Assembly: GCA_905178155.1 (NCBI GenBank)
Contig: CAJINV010000001.1
Coordinates: 9,073,865-9,137,864, forward strand
Source of the DNA: Amoebophrya sp. A120
Taxonomy: Eukaryota > Protista > Dinoflagellata
DNA length: 64,000 bases
Direction of reading: 5' to 3'
Position numbers and translations under genes: made by a program
Notes under the pieces: generated by a model
Databases searched by the model: none
Told to the model about the DNA's origin: nothing
Seen by the model: the letters and a program-made list of their open reading frames with translations, nothing else
Shown: positions 6,728 to 60,106 of the stretch, one piece after another
Numbering within the stretch: position 1 is the first letter of the stretch
Layout: each line of letters opens with the position of its first letter

Positions 6728-8815
6728 TCAGCAGCACGAATCATCATTCATCAACATGGCGCACGAACCGATAGGCAGATGCTTTTTTCTTTCTTTTTCC
6801 AAGAATCCGCGAAAGAGCCGAACAACGGATCGCGAAACGCGTCTATTATCGGTCGACATTCGGATCCGTACGACTACGAGCGGTGGTCGCGCTTTGTTCA
6901 ATTGCGATTGGTGCACAACTTGAACATCCTCGTTGAGAAAGTCCGAGCCTTCTTCGAATCTTGCTGTGCAACAAATTAGATTGTTGAAAAATGCGATTCA
7001 TTTGTATTTTTTTTCGCTCTCTGCATGAATGTGATCAAAAATTACTCCCATCTTCGTCGTCGTACCAGACAGACTCGTTCGGTCTTTTTTTCGTTCGCTT
7101 TTTCCCTCGATCGTCCGCGGAATATTCGTTGCGTAATCGCCATATTTTTTGCTGTGTTTGCTTCCTTTGTAAATCATCCCCAACCGCAAACTTTTGGTCC
7201 TCAAGCAACTGCTTTGCCACACGCTCGCGTGTACGGCACGTAGCGCGGTAAAGCTTGTCTGGACCTGCGTTTGGATCGATAACTTAATATACGCATTCTG
7301 GTCGCCAGTGCGCGACTTAGCAGGTCGTCAAGACTAATAGATACTATGATTTTTAGCGCGACTATGAATACTTACCTCCACCACCTCCCGACGCGCCCGC
7401 GCTCAATGCGTGCCCGTTCGTAAATTTCTTTCCCGCCGGAAGTTGCGCCAACAGCTCCTTCTTTTCCTGGATCGCCTGCAGAACCCGCTCGTACTGCATG
7501 TCCAGCGGGTCCTGCACTATTTCGTCCACATCTTCGTCCTCGTCGTCCGACGAGTCGGCGCCAGCAGTCGCTTCCTTTATCCGCCTGCACAGTGGGCTTT
7601 CGGGGTAACTCCAGACCGAGCCCAGCCCGGGCGAGAACACCTTTTCCCGGGACATGGAATTGCTGCTGGCCGGCGGAGAGGACTCCACAGGGGAGGAGGA
7701 GGACAAAGTTGGCGGAAGCAGGTTGTTGCTGCTGCTCGAGCTGCTGGTGCCCTTGCTGCTGCTGTTGAAGCGAATCGCAAACGCGTCATTCTTATCAAAT
7801 GTAAAAATGTCTGGGTCTGGAAACTTGTGATGCTGGGTGGCGCATCATGATGAGGCTCCAAATGCTGGCTCAGCATGACAAGTTTCTGAGCTCCTCGGTG
7901 TTGCTGTTGTCTATTCCGCATGACAAACTGCGCTTCTGCATCACAGAAAAACGGAGCTCTCGGGTAACGTGCGTGACAGATTTAACAGTCATGCCAGACA
8001 AGCATGACAAACATGAATTCTTCCAGACCCAGACATTTTTACATTTGATAATTCTGCTCTTCGACACTGCTCCCGTTGTTCGTCTCCTTGCTCTGCATTC
8101 GCGAGAAGGTACTGCTGTTGCTGGAATGAAATTCCTTTGATTGCGACCTGGAGGAGTTATTAGACGTGTTGGTTCCGGATCTGGAAAACTGAATCGCCTG
8201 ATCAAACAACGCCGAGGAAGACGAAGACGCCCCACTGCTGCTGCTCCCCCCGTTAACCGTGGTCGACTGCGAGGAGTAGAGGTGAAGCAGCGCATCCTTC
8301 ATTTTGCCCCGTCCCCCCGCACCGCTGGTCAACACGTCTAGCTCGAGCTGACGCACCTTCTGCCGATACTTTTCGGTCTCCTCTTCGTCCTCGTACTCTG
8401 GCTCGACCTGGACCGCATTCGCCGGGTCGCGTGCCTCGTAGTCAAAAAGCACACGCTCTTTTTGCTCCAATCTGCTGCGCTCAACATCTTGCTGTTGCTC
8501 AATATCCCCATCATTTGTGTAGATCGAGATCCCTGCGGAGTTCCGCCGCTGAATCTTGTTCCAATCGCTGCTTTCCGGGGACTCGCGCCTTGACTGTCGC
8601 CGCAGCTCGCGCAAAGAACGGTGGTCCTGTGGAGAGCTACCGGGAATCTGTCTGCTCGCCGAGCCCCGCCGCTTTGGCTGCGAGGAGTCGCGCCGGCCGC
8701 TTGGTTCATTCGACTTGTTCGTGCCGGCGGAAAAACCTCCTGGGGAAGCAAAGGGCTGCGCACCAAAAGACGGCGCGGTGCCGGTTTCGTGCTCCTTAGC
8801 AGCAGCTGCGCCCAT
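6728..8815 (-). CDS. Hypothetical Ser-rich low-complexity protein, multi-exon, interrupted by a family A introner
   Basis: ORF 8039-8815 joins ORF 7362-7706 in frame (EEQN|DAFAIRFNSSS) after removing 7793-8050 plus one TSD. A GTAAGT donor near 7372 leads to further exons (7035-7220, 6728-6916). The 3' end is uncertain. Confidence 0.6.
7793..8050. mobile_element. Introner/MITE-like TIR element, family A (258 bp), TSD ATTCT
   Basis: Perfect 30-bp TIR TATCAAATGTAAAAATGTCTGGGTCTGGAA; ATTCT at 7788-7792 and 8051-8055; located inside a CDS. Confidence 0.95.
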
Positions 8816-9510
8816 GGTGGTGCGAGTGAATCAGGCTCTCTCTTGGATAGCAGAAAACAAACGCGGCGAGTTGTTCCCTCGAAAGTTATCCTTCTCTCGG
8901 ATCATGAAAAGGACTGACGAGAGACTTCGCTCTGCTTGCTCGATTTCTTTCTTTTATTTTTCGGTGGTAGATACATAGCAATGAATGGAACAGTCTATAT
9001 GTGCGGAACAGGCACCATCGCCTTGAGCGTGCCTAACGCGAGTTTATTTTCGGCAAAAGATAGTAGTTCGGGGACTTTTCATATAGTTGTACCTGGTAAA
9101 GATTTTTCAAATTGAGGTCAGAGTCAGACAGTGAGTCACATAAACAACGTGAACGTGTGCATTTTTGCCAGAAAGTGAATTGGTATCCACAGGCCACGTA
9201 TGTGAAGGATGTGTAAAACCAGAGAGAAGCCAGCCACGAAGACTCTGTCTAGCGAGTATCTCATTTCTAGTACTAGAGACGTTTTAATTCTTGCAGTTCG
9301 TATTCCCGAAAATCGTCGCAGAAACTACACATTTCAATTGCGCATAATTATGGTTGCATGACCATGCAAATTCTATGGCGATATTGTCACGTTTATATAT
9401 CATATCTGTTTGATACCACGTACTATCAGCAATGCTATGTATGTCCATCGAAACTACGCTTTATTCCATGTTTACTGACCTATCATACATTGGACGCTGG
9501 TAATTCTTCC

Positions 9511-14384: not shown

Positions 14385-15308
14385 CTAAGCTTCCAGCTTG
14401 CCTTCGGCCCTTCTTTTTTCCACGAGTTTCTCGATGATATCCCAGTCAGTGAGCGAGTCAATTTCCGCCGCGGTGTCCTCTGCCATTTCGTACACGCACG
14501 TTTTCTCACCGCAGCAACGGTTGTATCTCCCGGTTTTCGCCCCCTCCTGCAGAAACCGCGCCACTCCGAAGAAGTAGAAGGCCCCATTCTCCATGCGCTC
14601 ACCGTCCCAGTCCTGGCGCCGCGGTCTGCGTGCGGGGTCGTAGTTCATCGGGACGGCGAGCTGGTTTTCCGCATCGACCAGTTTCCAAAAAAAGCGGTGG
14701 TACCTGACCACCGTGACGAGCGAATCCGCCTGCGCCTTGCGCATCAGCTGCAGACTCTGCCGAAAGTCCTCCGCGGTGGTAAGCGGGCTCGTCGCCTGGA
14801 TCAAACAGCACATGACGTTTCCGTTGGAACAAACTTGCGCGTGATCCGGCTCCTCGACCTCGGCACTTGTAGACAATAAATCGCCGGCTGTGCCGTTGTT
14901 GGCGATAGTGTTTTCGTTCTTGTCCACCGCCGCAGAAGAAGTACAACTTCTACTACTACTCACCAACTTCGGAAAGTTCGCAAGCAGAAACTCGGCGACC
15001 GCGGATTCGCTGCTGGCCTTGTCCGAGGCTGTCTCCGCGGAACGCTGGAACACCTCCGCCCCGTAGCTGCTGGCCACGGCGGCAATTTCATCATCATCCG
15101 TGGATACTACCACACGTTTAAACACCCCCGATTTCCGCGCTGCTGTGACCGTGTAGGAGAGGAGCGGCTGGCCGGCCAGAGGCTTTATGTTCTTCCGGGG
15201 AATGCCCTTCGAACCCCCACGAGCTAGGATCAACGCAACGATGTATTCGTTGTTCTCGGAAACGTTCCCCGGCGGGGGTGACGGGGAGACGCTCTCCAAT
15301 GAAGACAT
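14385..15308 (-). CDS. CMAS: N-acylneuraminate cytidylyltransferase (CMP-sialic acid synthetase), intronless
   Basis: [25 protein letters not shown] P-loop, VVSTDD, IQATSPL, and [18 protein letters not shown] motifs of the NeuA/CMAS family. Confidence 0.9.
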   Translation of the reverse strand: [307 protein letters not shown]

Positions 15309-16358
15309 CGGGGAAGGAGTGAGTTAATACCAGCAAAGCCCTCAAACTGATTTTTTTGTAACTCCACCTGGCAAAACGACTTCTCGGTGAAATTCTACTG
15401 GTGGATCGTTAAGCTATATCAGGGCTGTTGGTGTCTCTCCATTCTTGCTTCTACGCGTACCGATCATACAGGAGGGCAGCTCTACGCTTGCTTTATGCGA
15501 AGCCCGTGGGAAGCTTTTTCTTCACTCCTTATTTCTCAGCCAGGAATCGGGACTAGCATATCCAGCCAGCTACCTTGAAATAAGACGACAAAAAGCTACA
15601 AAAACTCGAAACGCCGGAACAAAAATGCGAAAAGAGGAGAAGACATCCGCTGCTGACGGGCCTTGAACCTTAACACCAAGAACAGAGAGAAGAAATGGAC
15701 GAGAAGACATAGAGTCTGCAATTTTACACCGGATAAAAAGGAATCTGGTTTCTTTTCTTCAAGGTGTTCCCGTATGCTTGGTAAAACTTATCCTGCCCCC
15801 AGTTATTGACTGTTGTGCAGATCCTATTTTAGTGTACAGGTGGGTGTATCGTAATCGGTGATGGTATCACGCACAAGATAGCGCAACTCAACTCGCACTC
15901 CAATGCTGCAGCGTATGTTGACTATCGCAAGCGTGAAGCCACGTACTTATACATTCGTCGCGGAAAATGATCGATGTGTTTGCAAATAAGATAAAAGTGA
16001 AACATGAAAACTTTGGAATAATCATTCAAGACAACTCTACAAGGGCCACCACCGTGACTCAATTACTCAATACCAAAATATGCAGCTTCTCGTCGCTGTG
16101 CGCTTCCATGTCTCCTCAGCTGAAATTCATCAACGATCCCTGCTGCGCGCGGATACTTTGATTCTATTTCGTTTTCAACAAAACAGATGGTAAAACTCTG
16201 AAAGCAACTTGAGCATCCTGTGAAACAACTACTATCACTAAAGAAAAGAAACTACCATACTTAACATTCTCCATCTCCTATGAACACTTTATTCATGATT
16301 TTCATGTGACAAAGTACACTCATTCTTCAACTGAAGCTACTGTGCCGCAAGAAAACAC

Positions 16359-18049
16359 CTACTCCCCCTGCGCCATTTCCTGGTCCGCAGATGTGAGTGG
16401 CTGCAAGGGCATGGGGTCTGGTTGCGACAGCAGAATCTGTGGCTTCGGCAATACCGTCTTCGTCCAGTCAAGTGTGGTCGACAGTGGCGCTTTCGGCTTC
16501 GTCACCGCCTGCAAAAGCGTCGGAGCCCAGTGCCACCTGCGGATGTGAAATTTGTTTTATAGACTTTTTTGTCGTTGCATTTTTCTTCCTTGCAATAAAT
16601 TTCGACGGACGATACCTTCGAAATAAACATAAATCATTGATTGTTGATCTTCCTCCGCTAGAACGTCGATCGCGATGAAGCAGCGTCAAAAGAAGAACAA
16701 CGACGGGAAACAATGCTACAAGCAAAAAGCATAAGCAGATACGGCAATTGCCGGGCTTCCGTTCCTTTCTCCAGTTCTGGCACGAGGTATTTTTCTCGCA
16801 GTTGCGGCAGGCAGGTGAGCGGATTTGAGGTGAACAGGGTCAACTTGGGTTTCGTGGCGAAGGTTGGCGGCTTTTCGATCAGGAGCGGTTGCACCGCCGA
16901 CAGCTTTATCAAATGTAAAAATGTCTGGGTCTGGATGTCATGCTTGTCTGGCATGACTCTTAAATCTGTCATGCACGTTACCCAAGAGCTCCGCTTTTCT
17001 GTGATGCAGAAGCGCAGTTTGTCATGCAGAATAGGCAATACCTAGGAGCTCAGAAACTTGTCATGCTGAGCCAGCATTTGTAGCCTCATCATGAGACGCC
17101 ACCCAGCATCACAAGTTTCCAGACCCAGACATATTCACTTTTGATAAGCTTGGGCTGCGGCAGCCCACCGAACATGGCGGCCCCCGTGGCACCCATGATA
17201 CTCGCGTGCGTGCTAGCACCTCCCGGGAGCGCCGTCGCCACGCTGGCAACGCTGGTCATGGTATTCACCTGTTCCAGTGTAGTAGTTGGCTCTGCCGCTC
17301 CTGCCACGGCGGTGGAGGTGGCCTTACTGTTCAGAATCTCCTCGATAACGGTCTTCTCTTCGCCCAACGTTTTCTCCTCCACTTGCTCGAGTTGTTCCGC
17401 GAACACGAACCCGCTACCGAGCAAACTCTTCGGGGACGCTGTGATGGAGTTACTTATGGTGTGGCTTTTAATCCATAGCTAAACTTCTTGCAACGCTCTT
17501 GCATCGAAAAACAACAGGAAGCAACAGCTAAGTGAAACCCAACATAAAAATCAATACATGGATCGACCAACTCGGGTTCCTTGGGGCTGCGGCAAGCCGA
17601 CCGCGGCGAAAGCGCTTCGACGAGGTCTTGGACGCCCTCCGGGGGCAGCACCACCTTCAACGGAGACGGTTTCTGTTCGGTCAGCTTCAGCAGCTTGCTC
17701 TTCTCCGGAATCAAGTGCGGTCGGGGCAGGTTCTGATGAATGTTGTATACGAATCAATGCAGCACATGCACAAGAACGCAGTTGCTGAAAAAGTTGAAAT
17801 TCGTAGCCGAGGCTAGAAAAAAAGGTACCACGACTGCAATCAATCATATCCTCTATAATTTCCTTTTCGTACCAAGTGCAGTTTTGGCGGAGAGAGCACA
17901 AGGGCGGGCTCTTGCTCCACAACGTCTTCCACATCTGAGACGCTGCCCTCATCCCGGACTGTGGTCCCCTTCGCCGAGTCGCCCTTTTTCACGCCCTCGA
18001 GCCGCTTTGGGCGCTTGAAGTTTGGGTTGTGAACCAACTTTTTGGACAT
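16359..18049 (-). CDS. Hypothetical multi-exon protein interrupted by a family A introner
   Basis: Exon ORFs 17840-18049, 17454-17714, 17089-17424 and 16658-17038. The join PQPK|LSAVQP is in frame after element removal, and the last exon ends at TAG 16361-16359. One junction (~17480-17560) is unresolved. Confidence 0.6.
16907..17146. mobile_element. Introner TIR element, family A (240 bp), TSD AGCTT; inverted copy of the 7793-8050 subfamily
   Basis: TATCAAATGTAAAAATGTCTGGGTCTGGA ... TCCAGACCCAGACATATTCACTTTTGATA; AGCTT at 16902-16906 and 17147-17151; the internal sequence is a near reverse complement of 7793-8050. Confidence 0.95.
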
Positions 18050-24671: not shown

Positions 24672-24741
24672 CTCGAAATTGTGTCGAGTGAAGAGAGAGC
24701 TAAATGATTGCAATTCCTGTTCCCCGAGAATTAGTATTATA

Positions 24742-35334: not shown

Positions 35335-38300
35335 TTACTTCGACGGTGAGTACTTCTCGCTGACCGCCCGGCGCATGATCTCGTCCAAGGGACCGAGTAA
35401 CCGCTTGAAGGATTTTCGGTCCAGGGACAAAACTTTGCAGCGCTCCTCGCCTGCCTTCACGGTGGCCAATCGTGGTTGCTCCATCAACAATGCCAACTCT
35501 CCGAAGTAGTCCGCTTGCTGATACCTGGTTGTAAAGAATACAGTTTGTTTGGCTTTCCCAGACAAGAAACTGTGAATATTTTTTTCATCCACATGCGCCG
35601 CTCCTCATGCAACTACACTGGACACTTGTAGAAAACGAGCCCGCAAGCCAGTCCAGTCAGACAGCTTCACGAAAAGCAAATACGCCAGCAATAAATTCTT
35701 CTCTCTGCGATCTATCATTATCGCAAAAAGTAGTACTGCATGACGACTTCCCCGCCCTTGACCGCGACTGGGTTTCCGGATTCCACGATGTAAAATTTGT
35801 CGCCCGCTTCACCCTCAGTCACGATGTGCTCGCCATTTTCGTATACCTCAGCCTTCAGGGCGTCCGCAATCTGATTTGGTAGTTGTTCTCAACGGCTTCT
35901 TCAGTCATGTTGCTTGTGCTTCTAGCGTATAAAAGATGGCGCATGAATCCTAGAACAGAACCTGATCCGCCACAAAAAGAAGTGCCTCGCGTTCCACCTT
36001 CGCCCTTCGCTATCGCAGTAAAACATATTGATATTGGCGGGAGACGTGATTCTACTGGGTTATTTTCCAGTGAAAAAGATGCGGTTATTGTTACGCACTT
36101 ACCTGACTGAGCTCGTAGCTGGTCATGTTCTTCAGCAGTGTGACCTGCTTGAGGAAAGATTCGTATCGCGACCTCTTGCTGGCGGCCGCGTCCTTGACGA
36201 TGGCGTTGAAGGTTTCCCGGTCGAGCTGCCAGAGCGTGCACTTGGTGGTGGACCGCACGTTGGCCGCCCGTGTGGTGTTGTACAACAGCGCTAACTCGCC
36301 GAACACGTCTATCCTGAGTAAAAACGTCCCCACACCATAGTCAAGATGGGGAATCGGCTAGACAAATCCACAAGCTTTGGCTGTTTTGCATGACAAATTC
36401 GGATTCGTAGTGTAGTGCCGTTTGAGCTAGCTCAACAGCATCACAGATCTAGCATACCATGCTGATTGGAGCATGACAAATTGCAAAACACGATTAGAAA
36501 ATGCTTCTCATGGGGCTCCGCATGAGAAACATTTTCAGCATGCAGATTTGCATTACAACTATAGGGTGGGGACGTTTTTGAATAGGATAACGTCCCCAGC
36601 CTCGCACGTCTTCACTACCGTGGAAACCCCCTCGATGTCCTTGTAGCACTCCAGCTTCCCCTCTTCTATCACAAACAGGTAATCCCCGTCGTCGCCCATG
36701 CGAATAATCTCCTTACCCGCTTCAAACTGACGGTTTTCAATATTTCACTTGCATGCTGTACTACAAAACCGTAAATCTGTACCTGAGTTGTGACTAAACA
36801 GGTGTATCATAACTCAAGCAATTGTTCACACTCGCCGGTGGCGAGTAGCACATTTTAGATTGCTGCAAAAAATAAAGCAAACTGGAAGATGAGGCATGAT
36901 GCATGCAGGCCTCAGGATCACAAAAGGCGGACGAAACGGAAACTACATCAAAGTCAAATACTATTTGCTCTTCCATGGCGTCGATGACGACCCCGAAGTC
37001 CTTTTCTTCCAGGGCCGTATCAAATGTAAAAATGTCTGGGTCTGGAAGATTTCTGGATTTGTCATGCATATTTTCCATGACCCATGATGTCTGTCATGCA
37101 TGCCCTAGCATCACAGATTTTTAGAGCGCTTTGTGATGCCTCTACAGCTTGAGAAATGACCTCTCCGCGTCGCACAAACTGGAGTCCTCTTGCTGGTCAT
37201 GCAATACAAATTTTTTCAGAATCCAGAGACAGCATAACAAGTTCCAATCTTCCAGACCCAGACATTTTTGCATTTCATAGGCCGCGAACAGGAACGATTT
37301 GCTGAGCACGTCCTTCTATCAAGTGCAAATATGTCTGGGTCTGGAAGAGTGCGAGATTTTTTGTCATGCTAGTCTAGCATCAGTCTGCGCTATGTATTGC
37401 GTGGCCACCAAGGGGTCCTCTTGCCTGTCGTGTCATGCAAAAGCGCAGTTTCTCGTGCGAAATACGCAGCACAGAAACACGAGAAACCTTGTCATGCTTG
37501 GCAGCGCACTACAGAGCACTTATTGTTCACGGACTTGCATCACAAGTTTCCAGACCCAGACATTTTTGCAGTTGATACCTTCAACCGGGTTTTCTGTTCT
37601 TGTGACTTCACAATCACCTTAGGCGTGAACTCCTTCTTTTTATTCCAGGCCCCGTAGGCCTCCGCGCTGACGCTCTGCCGGGGTCCCTTCTTCACGGCCT
37701 TCTGCGCGAACTCGGGGAGCTCATCCGGACCCTCGTCGTCGTCGTCCTCCTCCTCCGATTCCTCCTCGGCCTCCTTGGCATCGTCGTCTGGTACAGATGG
37801 GAACCAGGATATTAGCACAGCAGCTTTTTGATGGCATGACAAATATTTCGCTGCGGCTTACGCAGGGCAGCAAGACAAGACATTTCGCGCAAAAGAAAAG
37901 AAGAAAAAGATGAAAACTCGGTGAACAAATAAATTTTATACTTTTTGTGAGCGTCGCCAAAACGCCGGAGCAGTCGTTCAGGGTCTTGGATAAGGTCTTG
38001 ATTTCGTCCTTCAACTTCTCGTTTTCTTCCGTGAGTTTCTCTACGTCACCCGAGTCTGTAGTTTTTTATTGTTGTCAAGAAGTATCCTGTTGATCTCTCA
38101 CACGCTGGATCGCTGCAGCTGAAATTCATTATTTTCATTTTGTTGTTCCTGTACTCAAGACATTCACTACATCAATTAGAAAACCCTACTACCAAGCTGG
38201 ATTCCCTTCTTCTTTCTGAGCCATTCCAGCATGAAAGCAGCTGGCTCGGCGGGACATTGCTTCAGGCAGTCGGTAACGAGTTCGGTGAGCAAGGGGTTGA

Positions 38301-38361
38301 GCTGCTCTGTTATGTACTTCTTCTTCTCCTCCGGAATCTTCAGCGAATCCAGAGCCGCCAT
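35335..38361 (-). CDS. pkaR: cAMP-dependent protein kinase regulatory subunit (PKA-R), 9 exons, ~412 aa
   Basis: N-terminal dimerisation/docking-like segment, inhibitory site PRQSVSAE, and two cNMP-binding domains (FGELALLYNTTRAA; FGELALLMEQPRLA). Join 38361-38193, 38055-37942, 37787-37578, 37311-37280, 37012-36962, 36726-36590, 36304-36103, 35870-35737, 35524-35335 = 1239 nt, with 5 GT-AG introns and 3 introners. Confidence 0.95.
36310..36589. mobile_element. Introner TIR element, family B (280 bp), TSD ACGTC
   Basis: TATCCTGAGTAAAAACGTCCCCAC ... GTGGGGACGTTTTTGAATAGGATA; ACGTC at 36305-36309 and 36590-36594; removal restores CEAGDVFGELALL; opposite orientation to the copies at 58716 and 59650. 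Confidence 0.95.
37018..37279. mobile_element. Introner TIR element, family A (262 bp), TSD GGCCG
   Basis: Family A TIRs; GGCCG at 37013-37017 and 37280-37284; removal restores SFLFAALEEKD. Confidence 0.95.
37317..37577. mobile_element. Introner TIR element, family A (261 bp), TSD CCTTC
   Basis: Slightly degenerate family A TIRs; CCTTC at 37312-37316 and 37578-37582; removal restores RLKDVLSK and can be achieved with GT-AG ends. Confidence 0.95.
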
Positions 38362-39561: not shown

Positions 39562-42500
39562 TCACGCCAACGCCGGCGGTTTGATCCCGGCCGCCTTCGG
39601 ACGCCCGCTGTTTGCGCGCTTGCGATTGGGGGAAGGCAAGTTGGACAACTTCATCTTGTCCGCCCAGGACAATTTGGTCGGTTGACTCTTCGTCGAACTG
39701 GGACTATTCTTCGGTCGCTGCGGCACAGGTAGTTCTTTTGCGTCCGTCAAGGACACCGAAGCGGTAATCCCGGGCTGTTCTGGCTCCGGCAGAAACAAAC
39801 GATCACCACCGGTTTTCGTGACCGAGACCCCCAACGGCGGAAAGTTCATCTTCGCGTTAGTGGAAATAGCCGCGGGCTTTTTCTTCTTCACGATTTTCGC
39901 AAACGTCATTTCCGGTTCCTTCTTCCCTGCTTCCTGCTTCTCGATAGAAGAATTTTTCTCAGCTACGATAGAACTACTTTCCACCGGTTCTTTCACGTTA
40001 TTTTCCACCTCGATTTGGATGTCCACCTCTACTACGGAACAAGAAGTTGTTCTTTCCTCACTTCCAAATTTTCCTTCCGAGCCGGTCTTGTCTTCTCCCG
40101 ACTCCGGGGACCCTTCGTTCGTCGAACAGCAGTATGCACTGCAAAAATGTCTGGGTCTGGCAGGTTACAACTTGTAATGCTAATTCTGGATCGTGCAAAA
40201 ATCTGTGTTGCATGAATGCCAAAAGCTGTCCACGTTTGACCAAGTTGAGAGGAAGTTTCTCATGCAGGATGGGCATGATACGGATCGCGCAGAATCTGTC
40301 ATGCTAGGTCCTGCATTCCAGACGACATGGATCATGGAAAATCTGCACGACAAGCCTGGGAATCTTCCAGACCCAGACATTTTTGCATTTGATAAGCAGC
40401 AGTCCGCGCGCACCCAGCCATCCTTGTCCACGAATTCGGCCCGCGTTTGCTGCCGCTGCAGGAACCGCGGCGTCCACGCGGCGCAGTAGTGCTGTTCAAA
40501 CCAAGATTCTGTTTCCTGCTCGATCGCGTCGAAGTCCGCTGCGCGCTTCAGCACCTCCTCCGAAACCTCCTTCTTTGTTCCGCCTGCAGTTCCGTCTGTC
40601 GGCGAGAACGGCGTCGTGTCCGCGTCCGGGGCGAACAAGGGGAAGGACTGGAGGGAAGAAACCAGTTCCGCGTGCGTTTTCGTCGTGTTCGCACTGGGGA
40701 GGGACCGGAATTCCGGCTCGTGCCCGTGCTTCTTCAAAAATTTGCGGTTCCGCTTTCTCCAAGTGGCCATGATCACCTCGGACAACTCGTTGATACAATC
40801 CTTCTGCGGGGGTGGTCGTTGCGGACTTCTCGCCAGCGCTTCGCTGGACTCCTGGAAGAAGTGCTTCGCGTCGCGGAAAAAATGCGGCTCTTCCCCGCTC
40901 ACCTGCTCGTCGCAGTCCCACTGCACGTCGCTGTCATTGTTGACATTACCGCCCGAACCGTTACTGCTCAGCTGATCCGGCGAGGACCTCCGCCGATCCG
41001 CAATAAAATTGTGCGCCGCGGCAGGGTCGTGCCGGCTCAAGTTAATAATATTTTCTCCGTAGTTGTTGTACACCGGAGCTACCCCAGACGGCGGAGGCGG
41101 CGGAACGACTGAAGTTGTAGTTCCCAACACGCTCGAGCGACTGCAGGGCCGGTCGTGGAGCTGCTCCGGTTCAAACATCGCGGCCGCCGGCGGCCCGACA
41201 GGAGGATGTATACCGAACTGATTTGCAGCAGCATTGTTGGTCGTGTGGTGCCCCCGCATAACGTCCGGCTGGTAGATCACTGTGTTGTGCGGAGGGGACG
41301 GCGACAACGACGGGCGCCGCACCGGCAACGGCGGTCGCGGAACCGCTAATCCCGGATGGTGGTGGTGCTGCGGGTGCAACAGCAACGGAGAGGCGATCGG
41401 CGGGCCGTACAAATGCGGCGGCATCGGCGGCGGTGGCGTCGCCCCCATCGCGACAGCCAGCGGGTGCGGCCCCAACACCGCTCCGGGGGAACGGCCCAGG
41501 ACGGCTGGGTGCGGTCCGAGCGCCGGTGGCGCCAACGGCGATCCGAAGGGAACTCCTGCCGGCGGCCCTGCTCCGCGCAACAAGTGCAGCAGCGGGGGCG
41601 GCGGTGGTGGCGGAACCGAACTGCGCTTCTGCGCCGATGCCGTCATGTGAGCGTGGTGCTGCGCCGCCTGCGCCAGCAATTGCGGGGACGTGAGCAACGC
41701 CGCGACCGCCGCTGCCTGCTGCTGCGCCACCGAAGCCGGCGGCGGTGGTGGCGGCGGCGGGGGCGGAGAAACCTGTGTTAGTGTCAAGACAAATGGAAAT
41801 GTTGTTGTCGTAAAACCATGCTGCACTACAACCAAAAAGTACTATCGACGTGGTTGCAATTCCACCAATCGCAGCGACCAAGAACTTTATCAGTCTCTCG
41901 ACAAATCACATCAAGAAGATCACATCATGTGAAGAGGACAACTAGGTACTTAAGTACCTTCGTCGGGCGCTTGGGCACCGGAACTCGCAATGGCGAGTGC
42001 TGGGGCACGAACGGAACCGCATTGGCATTCAAACTGTCCTGGCTCCTCCTCCGCTCCGAGCTGTTACTCGGCGGTGGCGTGCCTGGCACAGTTTCCTCGG
42101 CGACAGCGACAGTCGACTTGGACTCGTTGTTGCCGGCCAAGGTCTTGTTCTCTTTCTGCTGAAGAACCGTCGAACCCGAATCGCCGGCATTCTGCTTCTC
42201 CAGCTGCAGCTGTTCTGCGCGGACCTGCTGCCAAAATTTCTCCGGCGTTTCAGTCTCCTCGGCCGCAGATTTATTGTGCTCTTTTTCAGCGGTTTTCGGC
42301 ACCTTCTCCTCGGAAAATTCCAACGCGAGCGGGGTCGGCCGCGGACGGGGGACGCCTCTGTTTTCGTTCTTGAGGCCACCATTGTAAAAGCCACGGTAAT
42401 CCGAAGGCGGATCTAACGGGGACGGCAAGAGCCCGGTTGCCACGGAGAAACTGGCCGTGGGGCGACCCGCGGAGACATCATGTTCTTCATCTTCCCGTAT

Positions 42501-45240
42501 CCTCCGAACCGTGGTGGTGCCGCAACCCGCACCGGCTTCTTCGGCAATATTGCCAAGATCTTCGTTCGCACTACCGTCATTCGAGGTCGCCGGCAAGAAC
42601 GTCGCCGCGCCCTTGTTCGTCGCCGAAGTGACAACTTCCGTCGGAGAGTACAGCTCGTCGAGCAAATCCCCACCGTAGGGCACCTGGTACAACCCCTGGA
42701 GCTCTTCGGTCTCGCACTCGGCGAACGGAATCTCCTCGTCCTCGGCCTCGTGAAACGACTCGTTTTCCCCGACAAGCGACGTGCTGAAAAACAGGTCTCC
42801 CTCCATCGAGTTGCTGCGGCTTCGACCACGGTAGGAATTATTTCCGCCGTCGGCGTGGAACCCACTGTCCCCAGCGACACAAATGTCTGCGGTGTTGTCA
42901 TTTTTCGCCGACGTGTCGACAAATCCGTTGTTTCCCTTGTCGACCCTGATGTTGCAGTGGGTATTCTTAATCGTTGTTTTTGCCTGAAGATGGCCCATCA
43001 CCGGCGGCAGCTCGGGCGGGGGCAAGGCAATCTTCGGGGGGACCATCGATTCTCCAGCAGTCGCGTCGCGCAACTCGTCTGTCAGGGACACCGTGTGGGA
43101 CAGGCAAAAGTTGCCGGCGCTCGCCGTCCGGGACGTGGAGCAGGCGGAGTCCGAGAAATGGAAACCGTCTACTTCTGAGCATCCCTCCGCAGCAGAAGGA
43201 CCAGCGCCCAACCGATGTTGACCTGAACTTGTTCCACCGGGGAAAACCGTCATCAAGCGAATTGCTTCTTCCTTCGACAGGACCGGCAGACAGCTTTTTC
43301 CCTTCTTCCCCTTCGACGACTTACCCCGCTTACCGCCTTTTGAAGAGGCGTAGTACGCCGAGACCTCGGAGCAGGATTTGGAAGTCACATCACCATCAAA
43401 CGGTGGCGCCACCGAAGGCGGCTCGCGACCGATCACACTTCCGAACCGTAACGGCGCCCCGGCGTTGGGGAAGAACTCGCGCTTGCCGCCCTTCTTGCGC
43501 CCCCCGCCGCCCTTGCCAGCGGCAGACGTCTGCGTCAGGCAACTCATAGGGGTGGCTGTGCAACTAAACGCCGCTGCGGAGGTGCACGTCATCGGCGACA
43601 CCAAGTCGTAAACCTGCAACTCCGCCGCGCCGTGCTCCGCCAGCAACGCCGTCCACATTTCCGGGTCGGGGGTTTTGTAAAAACTGCGCTCCACGTCCGC
43701 GAGCTGAACCTCGGACAGGATCTGCAGCGACTTCAAAGTCGAGCGGACGGTGCACGCAACGAGGGGCGCGGCATTCGTCAAGACGTGGGTGAAAATCAAC
43801 TTTCCCGCCGCGGGCGGGACGGACACCTTGCAGACGTTTCCCTGCGCCCACAGCTTCAAAACGTCCCGCACCTCATCCGTCCGTTTGCAGTCCAGGAGCA
43901 GTTTGATCAACTTCAGCAGCACCCCCGCCTCGACGGACAGCTTCGCGAACTGCAGGCCGTCCTTCAAAAGCTCCAACGCCCGGACCACCTCGCGGTCGCT
44001 CGACGGGAGGACGTCGTTGGAGGTTGCAGCTCCTGCGATGAACGATGTGGAACCTCCAGATGCGGAACCGCAAAACAAGTAGCCGCGGAGCAACGTGAGG
44101 TAGGAGGAAAAATCCGGGTAGAAACCGAAGTTGCGCATCGCGGAGAAGTAGTGCTCAGCCAACTGCAAGTTCCGGTGCGCGACAGCGACCTGGAGCAACA
44201 GGTTCATGCACACCACGTTCGGCGTAATGTGGTCGCGCTTCACCATTTTCTCGTACAGTTGCTTGCACTTTTCCAAGTCCGAGAGCCGCGCAAAGCCCTT
44301 GATCATCGTGGAGTACAGCACGCAGTTCTTCGACATACTCTCCGTGTTCTTTTGCGCAACGCTCATCTCGTCAAAAATCTGCTCGGCAATCCGCATCGAC
44401 TGCGGCGTCGCAGCTTTCGCTAACGCATCCAAAACACAACCGTAGGTCACCTAATGGGGTGGGGAGATTTCATTTTGTTCGGACTGGTGCAGATTTAGAC
44501 AGTGCCATTTTTCTTTTCCTGCACGCGTTCTAATAGAATGTGACACACGAGGAGACTGGGAGAATGAATCACCTTCTTCCTCAAGCAAATAAAGCTGCAA
44601 TGAAAATTCTGTTTTTTACCACGCTGGGCTGCAACTGGCGCTCGGAGCGGAGCTCGTCCCACAAAGCCAGCACCCGCTCCAGCTGCTTGGTCGCGCCCAA
44701 GGCCTTGATCACGATTCCGTAGGACACTACTCCGGGCAAAACGCCGAATTTCCCTTCCTTCATGTCCTGGAAAAGCAACTCCATGTGGCCCAGCGCCGTC
44801 TCCCCGTCGCCGGGACTGGTCATGCGCTGGCTCAGCCGCGAGTAGGCGTCCAAGATGGCATTCAAAACCACCTCATCCAGGTCCGCCGGGCGGAGGGGAA
44901 GGTATTTGGTCCGCAGCAAAGTCGTGGCGTCGTACAAAAGCTCCACCCAGTTACAGCCCGCGGTCTTCTTCAGAAGCAAACTCAAAATCAGGCCGGTCGG
45001 GGGCAGATTGCGGGACAGCATCCAGTGCACCAAACGCCATGCGAAGGAAAGCGAGTCCGGGGTGTTCTGACGCATGGCAAGATCCAACTGCGCATCAAAA
45101 CCATTCGCCGCGCCAGTGGATTTCGCGAGCGCTTCCTCGATCTTCGGCGCCGGACGGTTGTTTTTGGTCGTGTGCGGGTCGGGAAACCCCATACCCGGCG
45201 GCGGAGCGGACCCACCCAGCTTTGCCGGGGGTCGCGACAT
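39562..45240 (-). CDS. Pentatricopeptide-repeat (PPR) protein with long low-complexity/Pro-rich C-terminus and PAM2-like motif, ~1,685 aa
   Basis: PPR motifs PGVVSYGIVIKALG, PSVVTYGCVLDALAK, NCVLYSTMIKGFAR and PNVVCMNLLL. Join 45240-44620, 44450-41958, 41772-40395, 40127-39562 (5058 nt, in frame). GT-AG introns 44451-44619 and 41773-41957 (ACTAAC branch motif) plus one introner. Confidence 0.8.
40133..40394. mobile_element. Introner TIR element, family A (262 bp), TSD AGCAG
   Basis: TATGCACTGCAAAAATGTCTGGGTCTGG ... CCAGACCCAGACATTTTTGCATTTGATA; AGCAG at 40128-40132 and 40395-40399; removal restores RADCCCSTNEG. Confidence 0.93.
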
Positions 45241-45843
45241 TTTCGAGTTTTTTATTGCTGTGGAGGGAGAGAGGTGGAAAAATAAGCTCCTTCTCCCAAG
45301 GGACGTGAAGTCGTGATAAGAAAATATCAAATTTCTCGCGAGTACAACCAAGCAGGCAGTTAACCTTCTCCTGCACCTCCTATTTGAAGTTTCGTTCCGA
45401 AGATTGTTTTCAGAGAGGTACAGCGAGCTGCTGCCAAGTAGGAAATCTCTTTCTTTCTTGTTCAAGGGTTTTGCTAAAAGCACAACTAGTGAGCACTTTT
45501 TGCCTGTTTGATGTTGGAGAAAGTCCTAGTCACCAGTTTGCACTTATTTGCTTGCTTCTCTACTTTTCCTACACAACCACGACAACAACATTTCTCTCAG
45601 CAACGCTTTGCAAAAAACAGAGAAGAAATCATTTGCTCTCGGATGCGACAGCACTCGAAAATCTCTCTGAAAACGACACGAAAAAACCGAACAAGATTTT
45701 CTTAACCAGTCAAACAAACTCTACGCAGCAAAAAAAACTATACTTGCCTTGCGTTTTCAGAAGCTGCACGAAAAAAACTTATAATTTCAAAACGAGTTTC
45801 TTTCTCATCTACCTCGGTGAGGCTACTTGGCATCACAACCTTC

Positions 45844-51423: not shown

Positions 51424-51548
51424 ACAGAAAATAAAAACATGATGGCCACTTACTATGTGGGGAAATCTTCAACGTTGCGATTCACGTATGATTTTATTTT
51501 CATGGCCTCTTCTTCAGAAATGTGGCAAATGAAAAATCAAAGATCGAC

Positions 51549-54500: not shown

Positions 54501-57500
54501 GCCCATCCCCGCGCGGGACAGCGCGGTGGCGAATTCCGCCTCGGAGTCGGTGAAGAGGTATTTCAAAACCCGGGGCTTCTCCTCCCACCGGGCAACCTCA
54601 TCCATCTCTTTACCGCGCACCGGGCGGGGTCCCCTCCACGTCATGCGGCTCCGTTCTCTATCCTCGAACGTCCTCGAAGCCTCTTGTTTGTACTGCTCTA
54701 CTCGTCCTGGGGGTGGTCGTGCGCGGCCTGAGTACAATTCTCCGTGGTGCTCCGCGGGTCTGCCACCCGATCTCGGGGGGGACCGTTGGAAGCCGTAGGA
54801 CCCGCCCTCGGTTTGCGATGATGGAAAGTGGTAGGACAAACCACCTGAAAGGTGCTCAGAATGATCGGAATTTGCGGCAACGAGTCCTCGTCGTCCGTGC
54901 GGGCCCGCCGCGTCGTCTCCACCCGAAGCAGCATCGTCCAGCATTGGGTACTCTGGCTCTTCGTCGTCAATCGAGATGCTGGACTCGTCGTCTCGCGCGC
55001 CCTGGTTTGATGCCCGCGGGCGGTCCCGGGGTCCGAACGACGAGCGCCAGCTTTCCCGGCCGTTGCTGGAGCCGGAGCTCACCCGCTGGCTCGGATCCTT
55101 CTCGAAACCCTCCTGCTCGAGACGCTCGCGCAAAAGCACCGCCTCCAGGTCCTCCTTCGTCAACGACGGTGGCTGGTCGTCGCTTTGCCTACTTTCGAAA
55201 CTGCCACGCTCTTGGCCTTTCTCGTCATCAGGCGAGTAGCCATCCTCGTCTGGAGGAGGAGCTCCGTCTGCGCCATGGCCCCCCACCTCCGGGTCGTCGT
55301 CCTCTTCCACCCAGGCGCCCTCGCTGTGCCCAAAAAACCCGCCGTCTTGCTCGTGCTCGTCCAGACTGTCTTCCACGATGATTTCTGCGCCGTCTGCAGC
55401 GGGGGCATCCGCATACGTGTGCGGCGCACCGGGTTCACGACCTTTGCGCCGCCCGCGTGGTCCAGGCTGACTCTTTCCTGTCGCAGCTCCTTGTCCGCCG
55501 GAGGGTTTTGCCGCAGACGAGCTGGAATCCGAATCTCGTCCGCCGTCATCTTGTTCATCACTCGAGCTACTACTTTCCTTCGCCGCACTGCTTGAAGAGG
55601 GGGGTCGGGGTCCGCCACCGGGAAAAAAATCCGCCGGCGCCCCCGCTTCCCTGGCCTTCGGCGCACCGCCGCCGAGTGACTGTTTGTTTTCGTCCGGACC
55701 GGCGAACCATGCGTCCAGCAAGCTCGGACTGGGGCTGAAATAAGACGAGTACCCCGGTAATCGTGCGCATTTGCGAAAATCCAAGTAGTAGCCGTCGGCG
55801 CGGTGGTGCAGCAGCTGCCACTGCTGCCGCGCGATGTAGTAGTGCGCGTTCTTTTCCAGCTCCGACGGCTTCAGGCGCTTGCCGACCCGCACGATGCGCT
55901 CCGCCTCGTAGCCGGACGCCATGTGCCACAGCACCTTCACTGCGTTGTTGTCGTACGCCTTCACGGTGCCTGGGTACTGCGCAAACTTGCTGCCGCCAGG
56001 CCAATCCAGCATGTTCGGGTACACCAACTGCACCTGTGCCTGCTGTACAAATGTGTGAAACGTCATGCTGTACCCCTGGGGCGAGTTGTGGTAGCGCTGC
56101 TCGCTCAGCCGGTGCACACAGCCGTCCTTGTTCAGGATTTGCGGAAAGAGGTCGCGCCCGGACACAAATATGCAGCACACGCTGTATCGCTCGATCATCC
56201 GACGCTCCTCCAGCGGCACGTCATTGCCGTCCTCGTCGATAAGGTCCAGGTGTGCCTCTTTCATTCGGTATACCTGCGAATAGAGTCGAGGAATTTAAAA
56301 TTATGTGCCTCGTCATGCTACTTACTTAGTTAAGCGTACAGAAACTTCTACTCATACGGCACTTTTGAAGACAAAACAGAAAAGCATTTTTCCTATATAC
56401 CGAGTTGAAATCGACAAGGTCGTCTTCCAACGGTTCCTCCGCCCGTTCTGACGCGGCCAGGATCCGCGCCTTCTGGGCGCGTTTAGCCAGCTCCCGCGAA
56501 AAGTCGTGCAGCGTCTCGTCCGCTACCGCGCAGGCGTACACCAACGAGACCCCGCCGCTTCCGAGGGCCAGCGGTTTGAAAATTCCGTGGCTGTAGTATC
56601 ACAATGAAAAACGCCCCCACCCCCGAACTTGGGAGCATTTGTATAGCAAACCTCTCCAACAGAAACTTTCCAATCGTGAATAGCGAAAATTTGTATTGCA
56701 ACAGATCCCAGCAAGAGCGGCGCTTGTCATGAAAGCAACGCTATATACGCCTAGACTCTGCATCACAAAGATTCATATTCCTTTCATGCATGACAAAAAG
56801 TTTTCATTTGGAAACTTCACATCACAAATTATTGCAACTTTGGGGGTAGGGGCATTTTTCACGGTAATATGTAGCACGCGCACTGCTGAAACTCCGCGAG
56901 GGCGAATTTCCGGGGGTTCACGCGGATATCAATTGCAAAAGTGTCTGGGTCTGGAAGAATGCAACTTGTAATGCGTATTTCAGAACACAGAAAAGTCTCT
57001 CATGCATACGTAGCAAAAGCTGCCCGCTTTCTGTCAGCAAAATAGGGGACTTGTCATGCGGATTCGGCATTGCGGAAGCTTCTCGAAACCTGTGATGCTA
57101 GAGCTTCCATGCCAGACCTCTTGTGTCATGCAAAAGTAGCATGACTCTTCCAGACCCAGACATTTTTACATTTGATAGCGGATGATGGGGAACGACACCA
57201 GCGCCGCCATGTCCTCGGCCTGCACGAGGCCGGTCTGGTTCACGAGCAGCAGGTCCCGCGTCACCGGGTCCCGCATCTGCGGCGGGGAGGTCTGGCCGTC
57301 GGCATCGAAGGTCGTCCGCGGGTGAAGAAGCTTGCTCAGTGACGGCGCTTTGTTCGTGTGGTACATCGCGTATGTCGGATCGCGCTGCGACATCGTGAGC
57401 CGGCGGGGGCTGCTCGGAAAAACCGATGGTGGAGATCGTGCAGGGCTGGACGAGGATTGTCGCGCATATGGTCGCGTCGCCGCTTGTTGCGCATCAGAGG

Positions 57501-60106
57501 CTGCGGGTCTCTCGGAGCGGCGTCCGGGCGCATCCATGGCAGACTGGGGGTCTACTTCAGCGGACCCCTCGTCCACGACGTCGGCTAGTAGCCAGTCGAT
57601 TTCTTGGTCCCGCACGTTCAGATTTGTTGACGGACCCGAACTCGTGAAGCTCGCTTCCGACGCGCGGTCGTCGTCAATATTGTTCTTGTTGTTCTCTTCG
57701 GCCGCCAGCTTTGATGCCCGGAGCCGCGCAGCCTCCTCGTCCGGCGCAGAGTCGAGCCGCGCGGACGCAATCGGCCCCGTTGTGAGATACGGCGGCGCAA
57801 CCAGCCGCTCATTGCGCATGAAGTTGACGCACCAGCGCCACGGCTCGAACATGTGATCGCCGTTGTCGCGGCGCAACACCTTCTCCTCGAAGAAGTGCTG
57901 CTGCGTGGCCCGGGCCACGAACCGGCGGTGGTCCCCCGTGTGGCGATCGCCCAACGCGTCTAATGCAGTGTCCGGTTGCCCGCACTTGGTGATCGTGTGG
58001 TCCACCAACGGGCGGCGGGAAAAAATGATTTCGTCGCTCACGTCCTTGTTCCGCCCGTTATCCAGCTGGTTGCTCGGATTCTTCAGCGCCCGCACCAGGG
58101 GCGGGAAGTCCGGGTTGTGGCAGCTGTAGTCGTGGTACCGGGCCGTGAAGGAGTCCACCATTTGGTGGAAGAACCTCAGGTCGGACTGGTACTTCTCCTC
58201 CCGCTTCGAATAGAACAGCTGCTTCGCGCGGCTGCGGAATTGCACGCCCTTTGTTCCCGCCGCGTTCGCGAAGAACTCCGGCGGCTCGGCCCCGGGCGTG
58301 ACGGCGACCATGTGGTCAAGCATGTCGGGACTGCTCACGTGCTCATCGTGAAGCTGTTCCGGGCCCATGCCCAGGTAGTAGCTCAGGTCGAAAACCGTCG
58401 AGAACCCCCGGCGGCGCACCGGGCCGGACGCCGGCGGCGCGGCCCCGCGGCTCCACCACGCGGCCAGCCCGGAGTACCAGGCCTGGGGATCGTCGGGGGG
58501 CGGGGACGACTCCACGCTGCCCTTCGACCACTTCCGGTGTTCCTCCATGGTCTGAAAGAAGTCGAGTCGTTGCTCCTCCCGCTGCACGGCGGTCTCCTGG
58601 AACCGGTCCTCCAGCCGGCTCAGCATGCGCCGCATGTCCCGGCTGTCACTCATCACGGGGTGGTAGGTGAAGACGAGTTCCACCACCTCGCAGTACACGA
58701 CCACGAGCGCCACGATATCCTGAGTAAAAACGTACCCACGCCAGAGTTGTAATGCAAATCTGCATGCTGAAAATGTTTCTCATGCGGAGCCCCATGAGAA
58801 GCATTTTCCAGTCGTGTTTTGCAATTTGTCATGCTCCAATCAGCATGGTAGGCTAGATCTGTGATGCTGCCGAGCTAGCTCAAGCAGCACTACACTACGA
58901 ATCCAAATTTGTCATGCAAAACAGCCAAAGCTTGTGGATTTGTCTAGCTGATTCATCCCCAACTTGACTCTGGTGTGGGTACGTTTTTACTCAGGATACA
59001 CGATCCCGAAGACGTAGTGCCGCCGCCAGTTGCGGTCGTCCCGCCGCATCAGCTTGCTCTTCGTGTTTGCCGTGTACGGAATCTCGTGCTTGAAGTCCCG
59101 GGGCGGCGCGTTCGCGAGGGATTGGAACAGTTTCACGCCGATGGCGAAAAACAGCATACCGAGCCCGAACAAGAGGAAGAACAGCACCATCACAAACGCG
59201 TCGTCGGCGGGGTGCCACCCGGGCAGCGCGTGCATGTGCCGGTGCGCCACGCGACTGAGGACCAGCCCGAACCCGAACATCAGCCCGGCGAGCGAACGGA
59301 CCATCAACCACAGCCGCCCGGCGTCGCGGAGCCGGCGCCGCTCCTCCTTGCCCTCGCTATGGATTGTAAAAATGTCTGGGTCTGGAAGATTCTGAGACTT
59401 GTCATGCACGTTTTGCATGGGCCATGACGTCTGTGATGCATGCCCTTGCATCACAGACTTTTTGAGGGCTCTGCGATGCCTATTCCGCATGGCAAATGCC
59501 CTCTCCGCGTAGCCAAAATTGCATTCCCTTTGCTGCTTATGCAATACAGATTTTTTTGGAATCCAAATGCAGCATCACAAGTTCGGACTCTTCCAGACCC
59601 AGACATTTTTACATTTGATACTCGCCGCGGCTGATCAACGCCCACCGGCTATCCTGAGTAAAAACGTACCCACACCAGAGTTGTAATGCAAATCTGCATG
59701 CTGAAAATGTTTCTCATGCGGAGCCCCATGAGAAGCATTTTCTAGTCGTGTTTTGCAATTAGCCATGCTCCAATCAGCATGGTATGCTAGATCTGTGATG
59801 CTGCTGAGCTAGCTCAAACAGCACTACACTACGAATCCAAATTTGTCATGCAAAACAGCCAAAACTTGTGGATTTGTCTAGCCGATTCCCCATCTTGACT
59901 CTGGTGTGGGTACGTTTTTACTCAGGATACCGGCCCTCGTCGTGGGTCCGGCCCGGAAGGAGCGGCACGGACACGCCCAGGGACTTTAGCAAGCTGTAGG
60001 GGGTGAGCCCCAGGTGGCGGTCGCCCCACATCATCCGGCCGGGGGAGTCGAACCCCCCGTCCGAATTCTCCGCGTCGTGCGCGTCTCGTAACGGGATGCT
60101 CGTCAT
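51549..60106 (-). CDS. Giant multi-pass membrane protein of unknown function (~2,350 aa), split by 5 introners and 1 GT-AG intron
   Basis: Join 60106-59930, 59644-59621, 59352-58999, 58710-57178, 56921-56870, 56591-56401, 56273-51549 = 7056 nt, in frame. TM segments near the N-terminus and at FRFACVLVFLVWCALV. Confidence 0.8.
56597..56869. mobile_element. Introner TIR element, family C (273 bp), TSD TGTAG
   Basis: TATCACAATGAAAAACGCCCCCACCCCCGAACTTG ... CAACTTTGGGGGTAGGGGCATTTTTCACGGTAATA; TGTAG at 56592-56596 and 56870-56874; removal restores CACYSHGIF. Confidence 0.9.
56927..57177. mobile_element. Introner TIR element, family A (251 bp), TSD GCGGA
   Basis: Family A TIRs; GCGGA at 56922-56926 and 57178-57182; removal restores PIIRVNPRKF. 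Confidence 0.95.
58716..58998. mobile_element. Introner TIR element, family B (283 bp), TSD CACGA
   Basis: ~32-bp TIR TATCCTGAGTAAAAACGTACCCAC(G/A)CCAGAGT; CACGA at 58711-58715 and 58999-59003; removal restores FGIVALVVV. Confidence 0.95.
59358..59620. mobile_element. Introner TIR element, family A (263 bp), TSD CTCGC
   Basis: Family A TIRs; CTCGC at 59353-59357 and 59621-59625; same subfamily as 37018-37279; removal restores SRGEGKEE. Confidence 0.95.
59650..59929. mobile_element. Introner TIR element, family B (280 bp), TSD CCGGC
   Basis: Perfect 32-bp TIR; CCGGC at 59645-59649 and 59930-59934; near-identical to 58716-58998; removal restores DEGRWALIS. Confidence 0.95.

What the first reader, a model, noticed from the sequence alone, without database searches (positions are those of the whole stretch)
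7788..59934. Eleven TIR transposon-like elements that behave as precisely removed introns (introners) in five genes
Seen in sequence: 11 elements of 240-283 bp, all beginning TAT and ending ATA, with ~30-bp TIRs and an exact 5-bp TSD that differs at every site. All 11 lie in coding sequence and none is intergenic. Removing the element plus one TSD copy restores the frame every time, including inside conserved PKA-R motifs (GDVFGELALL, LFAALEEKD). Established: inverted/direct-repeat introner elements are described in Amoebophrya (Farhat et al. 2021, BMC Biology), so the phenomenon is known, but to my knowledge the removal mechanism and mobilising enzyme are unresolved. Inference: near-identical family B copies indicate recent spread.
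Basis: partly seen in the sequence, partly recalled or inferred. Interest (0 to 1): 0.85.

Follow-up and report, generated by a model that had tools for sequence, protein, structure and literature searches.

The report
Transposon-derived introns of Amoebophrya type
Eleven small jumping-DNA elements sit inside reading frames of a likely Amoebophrya parasite, and the four that could be tested are cleanly absent from a likely messenger-RNA contig despite mostly lacking normal splice signals; this is a published phenomenon, to which we add a short DNA motif that likely guides where the commonest family inserts.

Summary
Observation confirmed: 11 elements of 240-283 bp, TAT...ATA, 24-30/30 terminal inverted repeats, exact and different 5-bp duplications; 0 in 20 shuffled windows. 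One RNA-like contig lacks element+5 nt at 4 of 4 covered sites, along with 7 GT-AG introns, giving a full 412-aa PKA-R; DNA-like contigs show no empty site. Only 1 of 11 can be read GT-AG. These match the published Amoebophrya A120-type introners (Farhat 2021; Gozashti 2025), so the phenomenon is known. From 269 related elements in public contigs I add three things not found in the papers searched: (1) family A inserts 10 bp from a T-N-G on one side (105 of 139; 7 of 7 here), which accounts for a codon-phase bias; (2) a repeated internal motif, TGTNATGC, is shared across families; (3) there is no splice-dinucleotide, orientation or flanking-base signal. Best reading: non-autonomous cut-and-paste transposons, likely moved by an integrase-type transposase and removed from pre-mRNA by a hairpin-guided step. 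Neither enzyme was found.

The parts
7788..8055 (.). Element family A (7793-8050, 258 bp) with both 5-bp duplications; target TNG at 7775-7777
16902..17151 (.). Element family A (16907-17146, 240 bp), 88% like 7793 and inverted to it; target TNG at 16889-16891
36305..36594 (.). Element family B (36310-36589, 280 bp) in the first cNMP domain of PKA-R
   Evidence: skipped (285 nt) in run X3
37013..37284 (.). Element family A (37018-37279, 262 bp) in PKA-R; target TNG on the minus strand at 37295-37297
   Evidence: skipped (267 nt) in X3
37312..37582 (.). Element family A (37317-37577, 261 bp) in PKA-R; the only one with a GT-AG register; target TNG at 37299-37301
   Evidence: skipped (266 nt) in X3
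40128..40399 (.). Element family A (40133-40394, 262 bp) in the PPR-protein gene; target TNG at 40115-40117
   Evidence: skipped (267 nt) in X3
56592..56874 (.). Element family C (56597-56869, 273 bp)
   Evidence: exons not covered by RNA runs
56922..57182 (.). Element family A (56927-57177, 251 bp); target TNG on the minus strand at 57193-57195
   Evidence: exons not covered
58711..59003 (.). Element family B (58716-58998, 283 bp)
   Evidence: exons not covered
59353..59625 (.). Element family A (59358-59620, 263 bp); target TNG on the minus strand at 59636-59638
   Evidence: exons not covered
59645..59934 (.). Element family B (59650-59929, 280 bp), 95% like 58716 and 36310
   Evidence: exons not covered
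35335..38361 (-). Host gene: cAMP-dependent protein kinase regulatory subunit, 412 aa after removal of 3 elements and 5 GT-AG introns
39562..45183 (-). Host gene: PPR-repeat protein, open frame of at least 1666 codons across 1 element and 2 GT-AG introns (5' end beyond the contig)
7365..8830 (-). Host frame: 401 codons, serine-rich, no known family
16661..17478 (-). Host frame: 191 codons, probably one exon; weakest coding evidence of the five
56329..60115 (-). Host frame: 804 codons restored by removing five elements; no family, no homolog, no RNA coverage

Best explanation
These are non-autonomous DNA transposons with terminal inverted repeats and 5-bp target duplications that sit in reading frames and are likely removed from the pre-mRNA, element plus one duplication, by a step likely guided by the hairpin their ends are predicted to form rather than by GT-AG signals. 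Insertion (inferred): a transposase supplied from elsewhere, likely of the integrase-related IS3EU/GingerRoot/Ginger group, binds the termini and probably the repeated internal TGTNATGC motif, makes a 5-bp staggered cut, and for family A picks sites with T-N-G at 13 to 11 bases outside the duplication on one side. Removal (shown as an outcome at 4 sites, mechanism inferred): the terminal repeats pair and bring the two duplication copies together, and cutting and joining at equivalent positions in the two copies restores the original exon in either element orientation. Between catalysts I lean to a structure-guided route separate from normal splice-site recognition (about 55:45 against an altered U1-less spliceosome).
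For: Anatomy and shuffles. X3 contig skips 285/267/266/267 nt, exactly element+5, together with 7 GT-AG introns, and encodes intact PKA-R. DNA-like run X1 has depth 0 at these four joints and contigs that run from flank into the element ends at unique-copy depth (25-37). Element sequence is in RNA-like contigs X5/X6 where neighbouring exons and intergenic DNA have almost no coverage, so it is likely transcribed somewhere. Predicted hairpins z = -8.2 and -8.3, 2 of 2 folded. GT-AG register in 1 of 11 here and 5 of 104 related coding-called elements against 3.8 expected. Internal-motif polarity along or against the gene 55:52 (20 ties); no preferred base next to the duplication. Removing L+5 keeps frames of >=240 nt open on both sides in 58 of 147 related sites, against 17, 26 and 26 for L+4, L+6 and L. 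Target motif: 105 of 139 family A sites against 4-25 at offsets of 1-6 nt, both sides only 5; independent of gene strand and element orientation; 7 of 7 family A elements in the window, matrix p = 0.0002; it predicts codon-phase shares 0.19/0.32/0.49 against 20:28:54 observed. TA..TA termini are those of IS3EU/GingerRoot and of A120 family 38.
Against: Only 4 of 11 sites are RNA-tested, on one assembled contig of a run whose RNA status is a guess; raw RNA reads did not cover the genes (9, 32 and 374 reads laid, all only partly fitting). X1 may be the sample the window came from, and contigs drop rare forms, so excision in some life stage is not excluded. No transposase was found: no credible Pfam hit in 21 frames from 8 long elements. 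IS3EU/GingerRoot make 6-bp, not 5-bp, duplications. Neither TAT nor the duplication is invariant in related elements (4.1% and 4.0% changed bases), so no base was shown to be needed for removal. A working spliceosome handles 7 of 7 ordinary introns in the same transcripts, and both element ends offer a short U-run that it could use. The target motif is weak or absent in families B/C/D (10 of 48), and it does not favour coding over non-coding DNA (weights 0.95 vs 1.6).
Confidence: 0.82

Rival explanations
1. Same elements and RNA-level removal, but catalysed by a modified major spliceosome that lacks U1 and uses the terminal hairpin in place of splice-site dinucleotides (Farhat's suggestion). 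This is a sub-case of the best explanation; the figure is its overall probability.
For: Nearly all spliceosomal proteins and U2/U4/U5/U6 are reported in A120, with U1 undetected; Fritillaria non-canonical introns are reported to be spliceosomal; all 10 family consensus ends carry a T-run 11-15 nt from the end.
Against: No excess of AG (58 of 104 vs 51 expected) or GT-AG registers; GT registers 55 vs 45 expected lie at the upper edge of chance. The 7 ordinary introns have only 3-7 T in the 20 nt before AG, unlike the element ends.
Confidence: 0.37
2. Programmed precise excision from DNA in the expressing stage, as with ciliate internal eliminated sequences (recalled analogy), so that transcripts never contain the element.
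For: Element plus one duplication is the product of precise transposon excision; the signals are orientation-free; DNA and RNA runs are different samples.
Against: No empty-site joint at 4 of 4 sites in X1; element sequence and element-flank junctions are present in RNA or RNA-like runs.
Confidence: 0.1
3. The joints are reverse-transcription skips across a strong hairpin between short direct repeats; the mRNA keeps the element and the ribosome would have to hop between the repeats.
For: Reverse-transcription artefacts that mimic introns are documented (abstract; the hairpin-plus-repeat signature is recalled); a 5-nt repeat always holds one in-frame codon; no paper with Amoebophrya + A120 + direct RNA + intron was found.
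Against: Stops in all frames of all 11 elements, three of them in PKA-R. Of 15 single-mismatch duplications in coding-called sites, 8 fall inside the in-frame codon and 3 change its second base, which would break re-pairing. Element bins are 0.4-4 times the transcript depth in X3 but 250-6,700 times unique depth in X1 (crude).
Confidence: 0.05
4. Some host frames, above all the five-element one, are dead genes in which elements piled up without being removed.
For: No RNA coverage of its exons in 3 RNA or RNA-like runs; no family or homolog.
Against: 804 codons stay open once the five elements are removed, and all ten ends are intact; a hole in coverage proves nothing.
Confidence: 0.08

Closest known systems
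Amoebophrya A120-type introner elements (Farhat et al. 2021, PMC7789003; Gozashti et al. 2025, PMC12130899, Dataset file 8)
   Same: TAT + 7 variable nt + A-run termini, 5-bp direct repeats, hairpin, non-canonical borders, no internal transposase, size classes near 109, 150, 209, 250-260, 278, 305 and 321 bp with ~30-bp terminal repeats.
   Different: Nothing that excludes membership. Farhat gives 8-20-nt repeats and 3-5-nt direct repeats; here they resolve to ~30 bp and a strict 5 bp. The one-sided target motif, the phase bias and the cross-family internal motif were not in the passages read.
IS3EU/GingerRoot and Ginger-like integrase-type DNA transposons (PMC10045372); A120 family 38
   Same: TA..TA termini; family 38 is listed with a 5-bp duplication and TA/TA termini.
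Euglenid nonconventional introns (review PMC11282704)
   Same: Terminal inverted repeats pair the ends, duplication-like repeats at junctions, likely MITE origin, mechanism unsolved.
   Different: Euglenid introns have a pyrimidine|purine junction consensus and are reported to be excised as circles; no junction consensus here and the excised form is untested.
Introners of Micromonas, Aureococcus, Polarella and Fritillaria
   Same: Non-autonomous transposons that act as introns.
   Different: Those carry or co-opt specific splice dinucleotides; these show none.

Membership tests
Amoebophrya A120-type introner element | Inverted repeat starting TAT, seven variable nt, then at least three A | tested here: met
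   11 of 11 left ends; 10 of 11 elements at both ends, 16907 has AAT at one end
Amoebophrya A120-type introner element | 3-5-nt direct repeat at the exon/intron border | tested here: met
   Exact 5 bp in 11 of 11; 219 of 269 related elements exact, 34 with one mismatch
Amoebophrya A120-type introner element | Absent from transcripts, with non-GT-AG borders | tested here: met
   4 of 4 covered sites skipped in X3, 3 of them with no GT-AG register; 7 sites untested
Amoebophrya A120-type introner element | Repeated in families across the genome | tested here: met
   Three families in the window; 11,663 contigs of X1 laid on 13 kb with depth piled on the elements; at least 157 stretches in a public contig set
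Amoebophrya A120-type introner element | Predicted hairpin joining the ends | tested here: met
   2 of 2 folded, z about -8; prediction only
Amoebophrya A120-type introner element | Host is Amoebophrya of the A120 type | tested here: inconclusive
   Inferred from the terminal motif and size classes; no genome held, run labels coded
Non-autonomous TIR DNA transposon (MITE) | Terminal repeats, fixed-length variable duplication, no coding capacity, many copies | tested here: met
   (exact match at 5 bp in 140 of 172; at 6 or 7 bp in 0)
IS3EU/GingerRoot | TA..TA termini | tested here: met
IS3EU/GingerRoot | 6-bp target duplication | tested here: not met
   5 bp; 0 of 172 match at 6 bp
IS3EU/GingerRoot | Integrase-related DDE transposase in an autonomous partner | not testable with these tools
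   No genome held; long elements carry no recognisable frame
Canonical U2 spliceosomal intron | GT/GC...AG borders | tested here: not met
   1 of 11; 5 of 104 related vs 3.8 by chance
Euglenid-type nonconventional intron | Excised as full-length circle after conventional introns | not testable with these tools
   Needs raw or long RNA reads; none covered the genes

The most novel reading that the evidence does not exclude
Amoebophrya of this type has a second, spliceosome-independent intron-removal machine, an endonuclease-ligase that reads the base of a transposon hairpin and rejoins exons seamlessly at any sequence, and the elements are spread by an undescribed 5-bp-duplicating integrase-type transposase that docks on a one-sided AWTYGY site one helical turn from the cut.
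Probability: 0.35. Interest if true: 0.85.

Novelty: already known. Interest (0 to 1): 0.42.

Why it matters
The elements themselves are published. What remains open is how a cell removes tens of thousands of inserts with no splice dinucleotides, and what moves them. This locus is a clean test case: three elements and five ordinary introns in one conserved gene. The one-sided target motif gives a sequence-level prediction for a candidate transposase, shows that families differ in target choice, and explains codon-phase bias without invoking splicing. A sequence-independent seamless RNA excision activity would be a new kind of splicing.

Tried and rejected
G after the duplication on the sense strand (8 of 11 in the window): rejected; 35% in 104 related sites, equal to background. 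Special conservation of terminal TAT over the duplication: not seen (p = 0.68). Target motif as the cause of exon preference: rejected. Motif side tied to element orientation (41:35, 18:16) or to terminal-repeat variant: rejected. 10.5-bp spacing of the internal motif: mean cosine 0.34, but dominated by related family A copies, not claimed. Twelfth element: none significant. Viral contigs: 0 matches to the family A terminus. Transposase: 1 weak DUF hit below cut-off in 21 frames; whole-record search not available for these loci; none among 12 long window frames scanned. Homologs of the five-element gene: none at 280-2550 aa, a weak negative. No listed holder is on record as RNA. Raw RNA runs X10-X12 did not cover the genes, and the second lay gave no exon coverage, so both are blanks. 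Three terminal-repeat strings were not found in the 13 of 14 supplementary files searched for PMC12130899. Roy et al. 2023 is not held. Earlier scan findings: none. The element-free window has no match in the 153 loci, so orthologous empty sites could not be tested.
Full report
1. Observation. At >=20/30 the definition finds 11 in the window and none in 20 shuffles. There are three terminal types: family A (7 copies, full-length pairs 66-88% alike), B (3 copies, 93-95%) and C (1). All host frames are on the minus strand. Removing element + 5 nt opens a frame across every junction, and each element has stops in all three sense frames.

2. RNA and DNA. No genome is held. Of 12 runs listed I laid 8. 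On 33500-46500, one 7,942-nt contig of X3 (RNA is the tool's guess) skips 285, 267, 266 and 267 nt, exactly element+5, at 4 of 4 elements, and also skips 7 GT-AG introns (15 of 94 joint rows were shown). The model built from these joints gives a 412-aa PKA regulatory subunit from start to stop and a PPR protein frame of 1666 codons. X1, which keeps the ordinary introns and has even depth near 27, shows depth 0 at those joints; its contigs run from flank into element ends, though only one meets the tool's 31-letter bridging rule. X1 may be the window's own source. Raw RNA reads were uninformative for junction precision.

3. No splice-site signal. Sliding the cut through the duplication gives GT-AG for 1 of 11. 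A detector blind to the duplication found 269 distinct elements (it finds 10 of the 11 window elements): 219 exact, 34 with one mismatch, 16 with more. A coding model (130 of 138 strands right in cross-validation) called 127 of the 228 with enough flank; 101 got no call and 41 were too short. Among 104 called sites with exact duplications, GT-AG registers were 5 against 3.8 expected; internal-motif polarity ran with or against the gene 55:52; bases next to the duplication were at background. Two folded elements form long terminal stems, z about -8.

4. Insertion rule (new here). Codon phase is uneven: the first duplicated base is at codon position 1, 2, 3 in 20, 28, 54 sites (p = 9e-5; stable over five settings; the random-offset control was itself uneven, 127:88:87, in another direction). 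The 11 window elements alone do not show this bias (2, 6, 3). The cause lies further out: over 216 sites, T at -13 (52%) and G at -11 (48%) counted outward from the duplication. In family A, TNG is present in 105 of 139 sites at that offset against 4-25 at neighbouring offsets; both sides carry it in only 5, as expected if one is enough. Oriented on it, the consensus is about A-W-T-Y-G-Y at -15 to -10. The side is independent of gene strand and element orientation, so it is likely a DNA-level target signal. The window was not used to derive the motif, and 7 of 7 family A elements in it carry TNG on exactly one side, 0 of 4 B/C elements do. The matrix applied to known coding sequence predicts phase shares 0.19/0.32/0.49, close to those seen. 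Family E shows it in 19 of 33, B/C/D in 10 of 48. It does not favour exons.

5. Internal motif (new here). T(G/C)TNATGC occurs 48 times in the 11 elements against 1.9 in shuffles and 13 times in the other 61 kb, and averages 1.4-4.3 copies per element in all six terminal groups of the related set. Elements lie both ways in genes while the motif is polar in family B (101:1), so a transposase-binding role is more likely than an RNA role (inference).

6. Decay. In 171 related family A elements the two duplication copies differ at 34 of 855 bases (4.0%), terminal TAT at 26 of 633 (4.1%), the repeat core at about 3%. Perfect repeats therefore appear not to be required, though these sites are not RNA-tested. 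Median nearest-neighbour identity among 266 elements is 87%, none at 98% or more, in a small sample of a large population.

7. What is known. Farhat et al. 2021 (PMC7789003; read: abstract, sections 10, 11, 12, 16, passages, supplement legends and some tables; figures not seen) describe A120 introners with termini TAT + 7 nt + As, 3-5-nt direct repeats, 29,850 repeated introns, U1 undetected, and no transposase found in A120. Gozashti et al. 2025 (PMC12130899; passages and all 58 A120 rows of supplementary file 8) class most families as TIR DNA of unknown superfamily and family 38 as Ginger, 5-bp TSD, TA/TA termini, while the text says it lacks expected Ginger termini. PMC10045372 (passages) gives TA..TA and 6 bp for IS3EU/GingerRoot. 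PMC11282704 (section 6) covers euglenid and tunicate parallels. PMC12005148 (passages) reports mostly GT/AG introns in another Amoebophrya. PMC9860276 (passages) reports GC-rich and linker insertion biases in general. PMC8240250: abstract only. The target and internal motifs did not appear in term searches of these papers or in library searches; figures (Farhat S20-S25), supplementary file 14 of PMC12130899 and Roy et al. 2023 (not held) could hold them.

8. Verdict. Real, and a known phenomenon. RNA-level precise removal of a non-autonomous transposon is the best reading (0.82); the catalyst and the transposase are inferred, not found. The added target rule is well supported statistically but comes from one contig set plus this window. 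Novelty: already known. Interest 0.42.

Noticed in passing
window 59823-59929 (reads of run X12): 374 raw RNA reads match the last ~107 nt of a family B end (4 differences); 197 run past the terminus into a foreign AT-rich flank and 217 begin in foreign sequence: an element end kept in some other abundant transcript, possibly a half element that is not removed.
   Followed up: no
window 27540-27690: Three internal-type motifs and weak hits from three family profiles (E 0.12-0.47) in AT-rich non-coding DNA; possibly a decayed intergenic element.
   Followed up: partly
window 18990-24746 and 28942-34056: Two long uninterrupted minus-strand frames (1919 and 1705 codons), tandem paralogs 70-80% alike in matched blocks, no Pfam family, no elements.
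   Followed up: no
window 34837-45185: One RNA-like contig runs through the PPR gene, about 1.2 kb of spacer and the PKA-R gene on the same strand; overlapping or read-through transcripts, or an assembly join.
   Followed up: no
window 37280-37316, 56870-56926, 59621-59649: Elements sit 37, 57 and 29 nt apart, making micro-exons; in related loci 27 of 153 gaps are under 70 nt but only 3 under 40.
   Followed up: partly
L073 7024-7995, L025 632-1465, L049 3862-4492, L048 571-1051, L074 10903-11398, L026 6314-6770: Long elements (457-972 bp) with intact ends and exact duplications carry unique internal sequence with no recognisable protein.
   Followed up: partly
L002, L023, L040, L064, L119, L130: Family A ends with 1-5-nt insertions or deletions between TAT and the repeat core but a kept duplication; useful for testing how the cut site is measured.
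   Followed up: no
window 14388-15323 and 48970-49878: Cytidylyltransferase (PF02348) and SPFH/Band 7 (PF01145) genes.
   Followed up: no
run X9: An estuary metagenome holds family A, B and C element sequence with short foreign stretches between element ends, but no host exons of this stretch.
   Followed up: no
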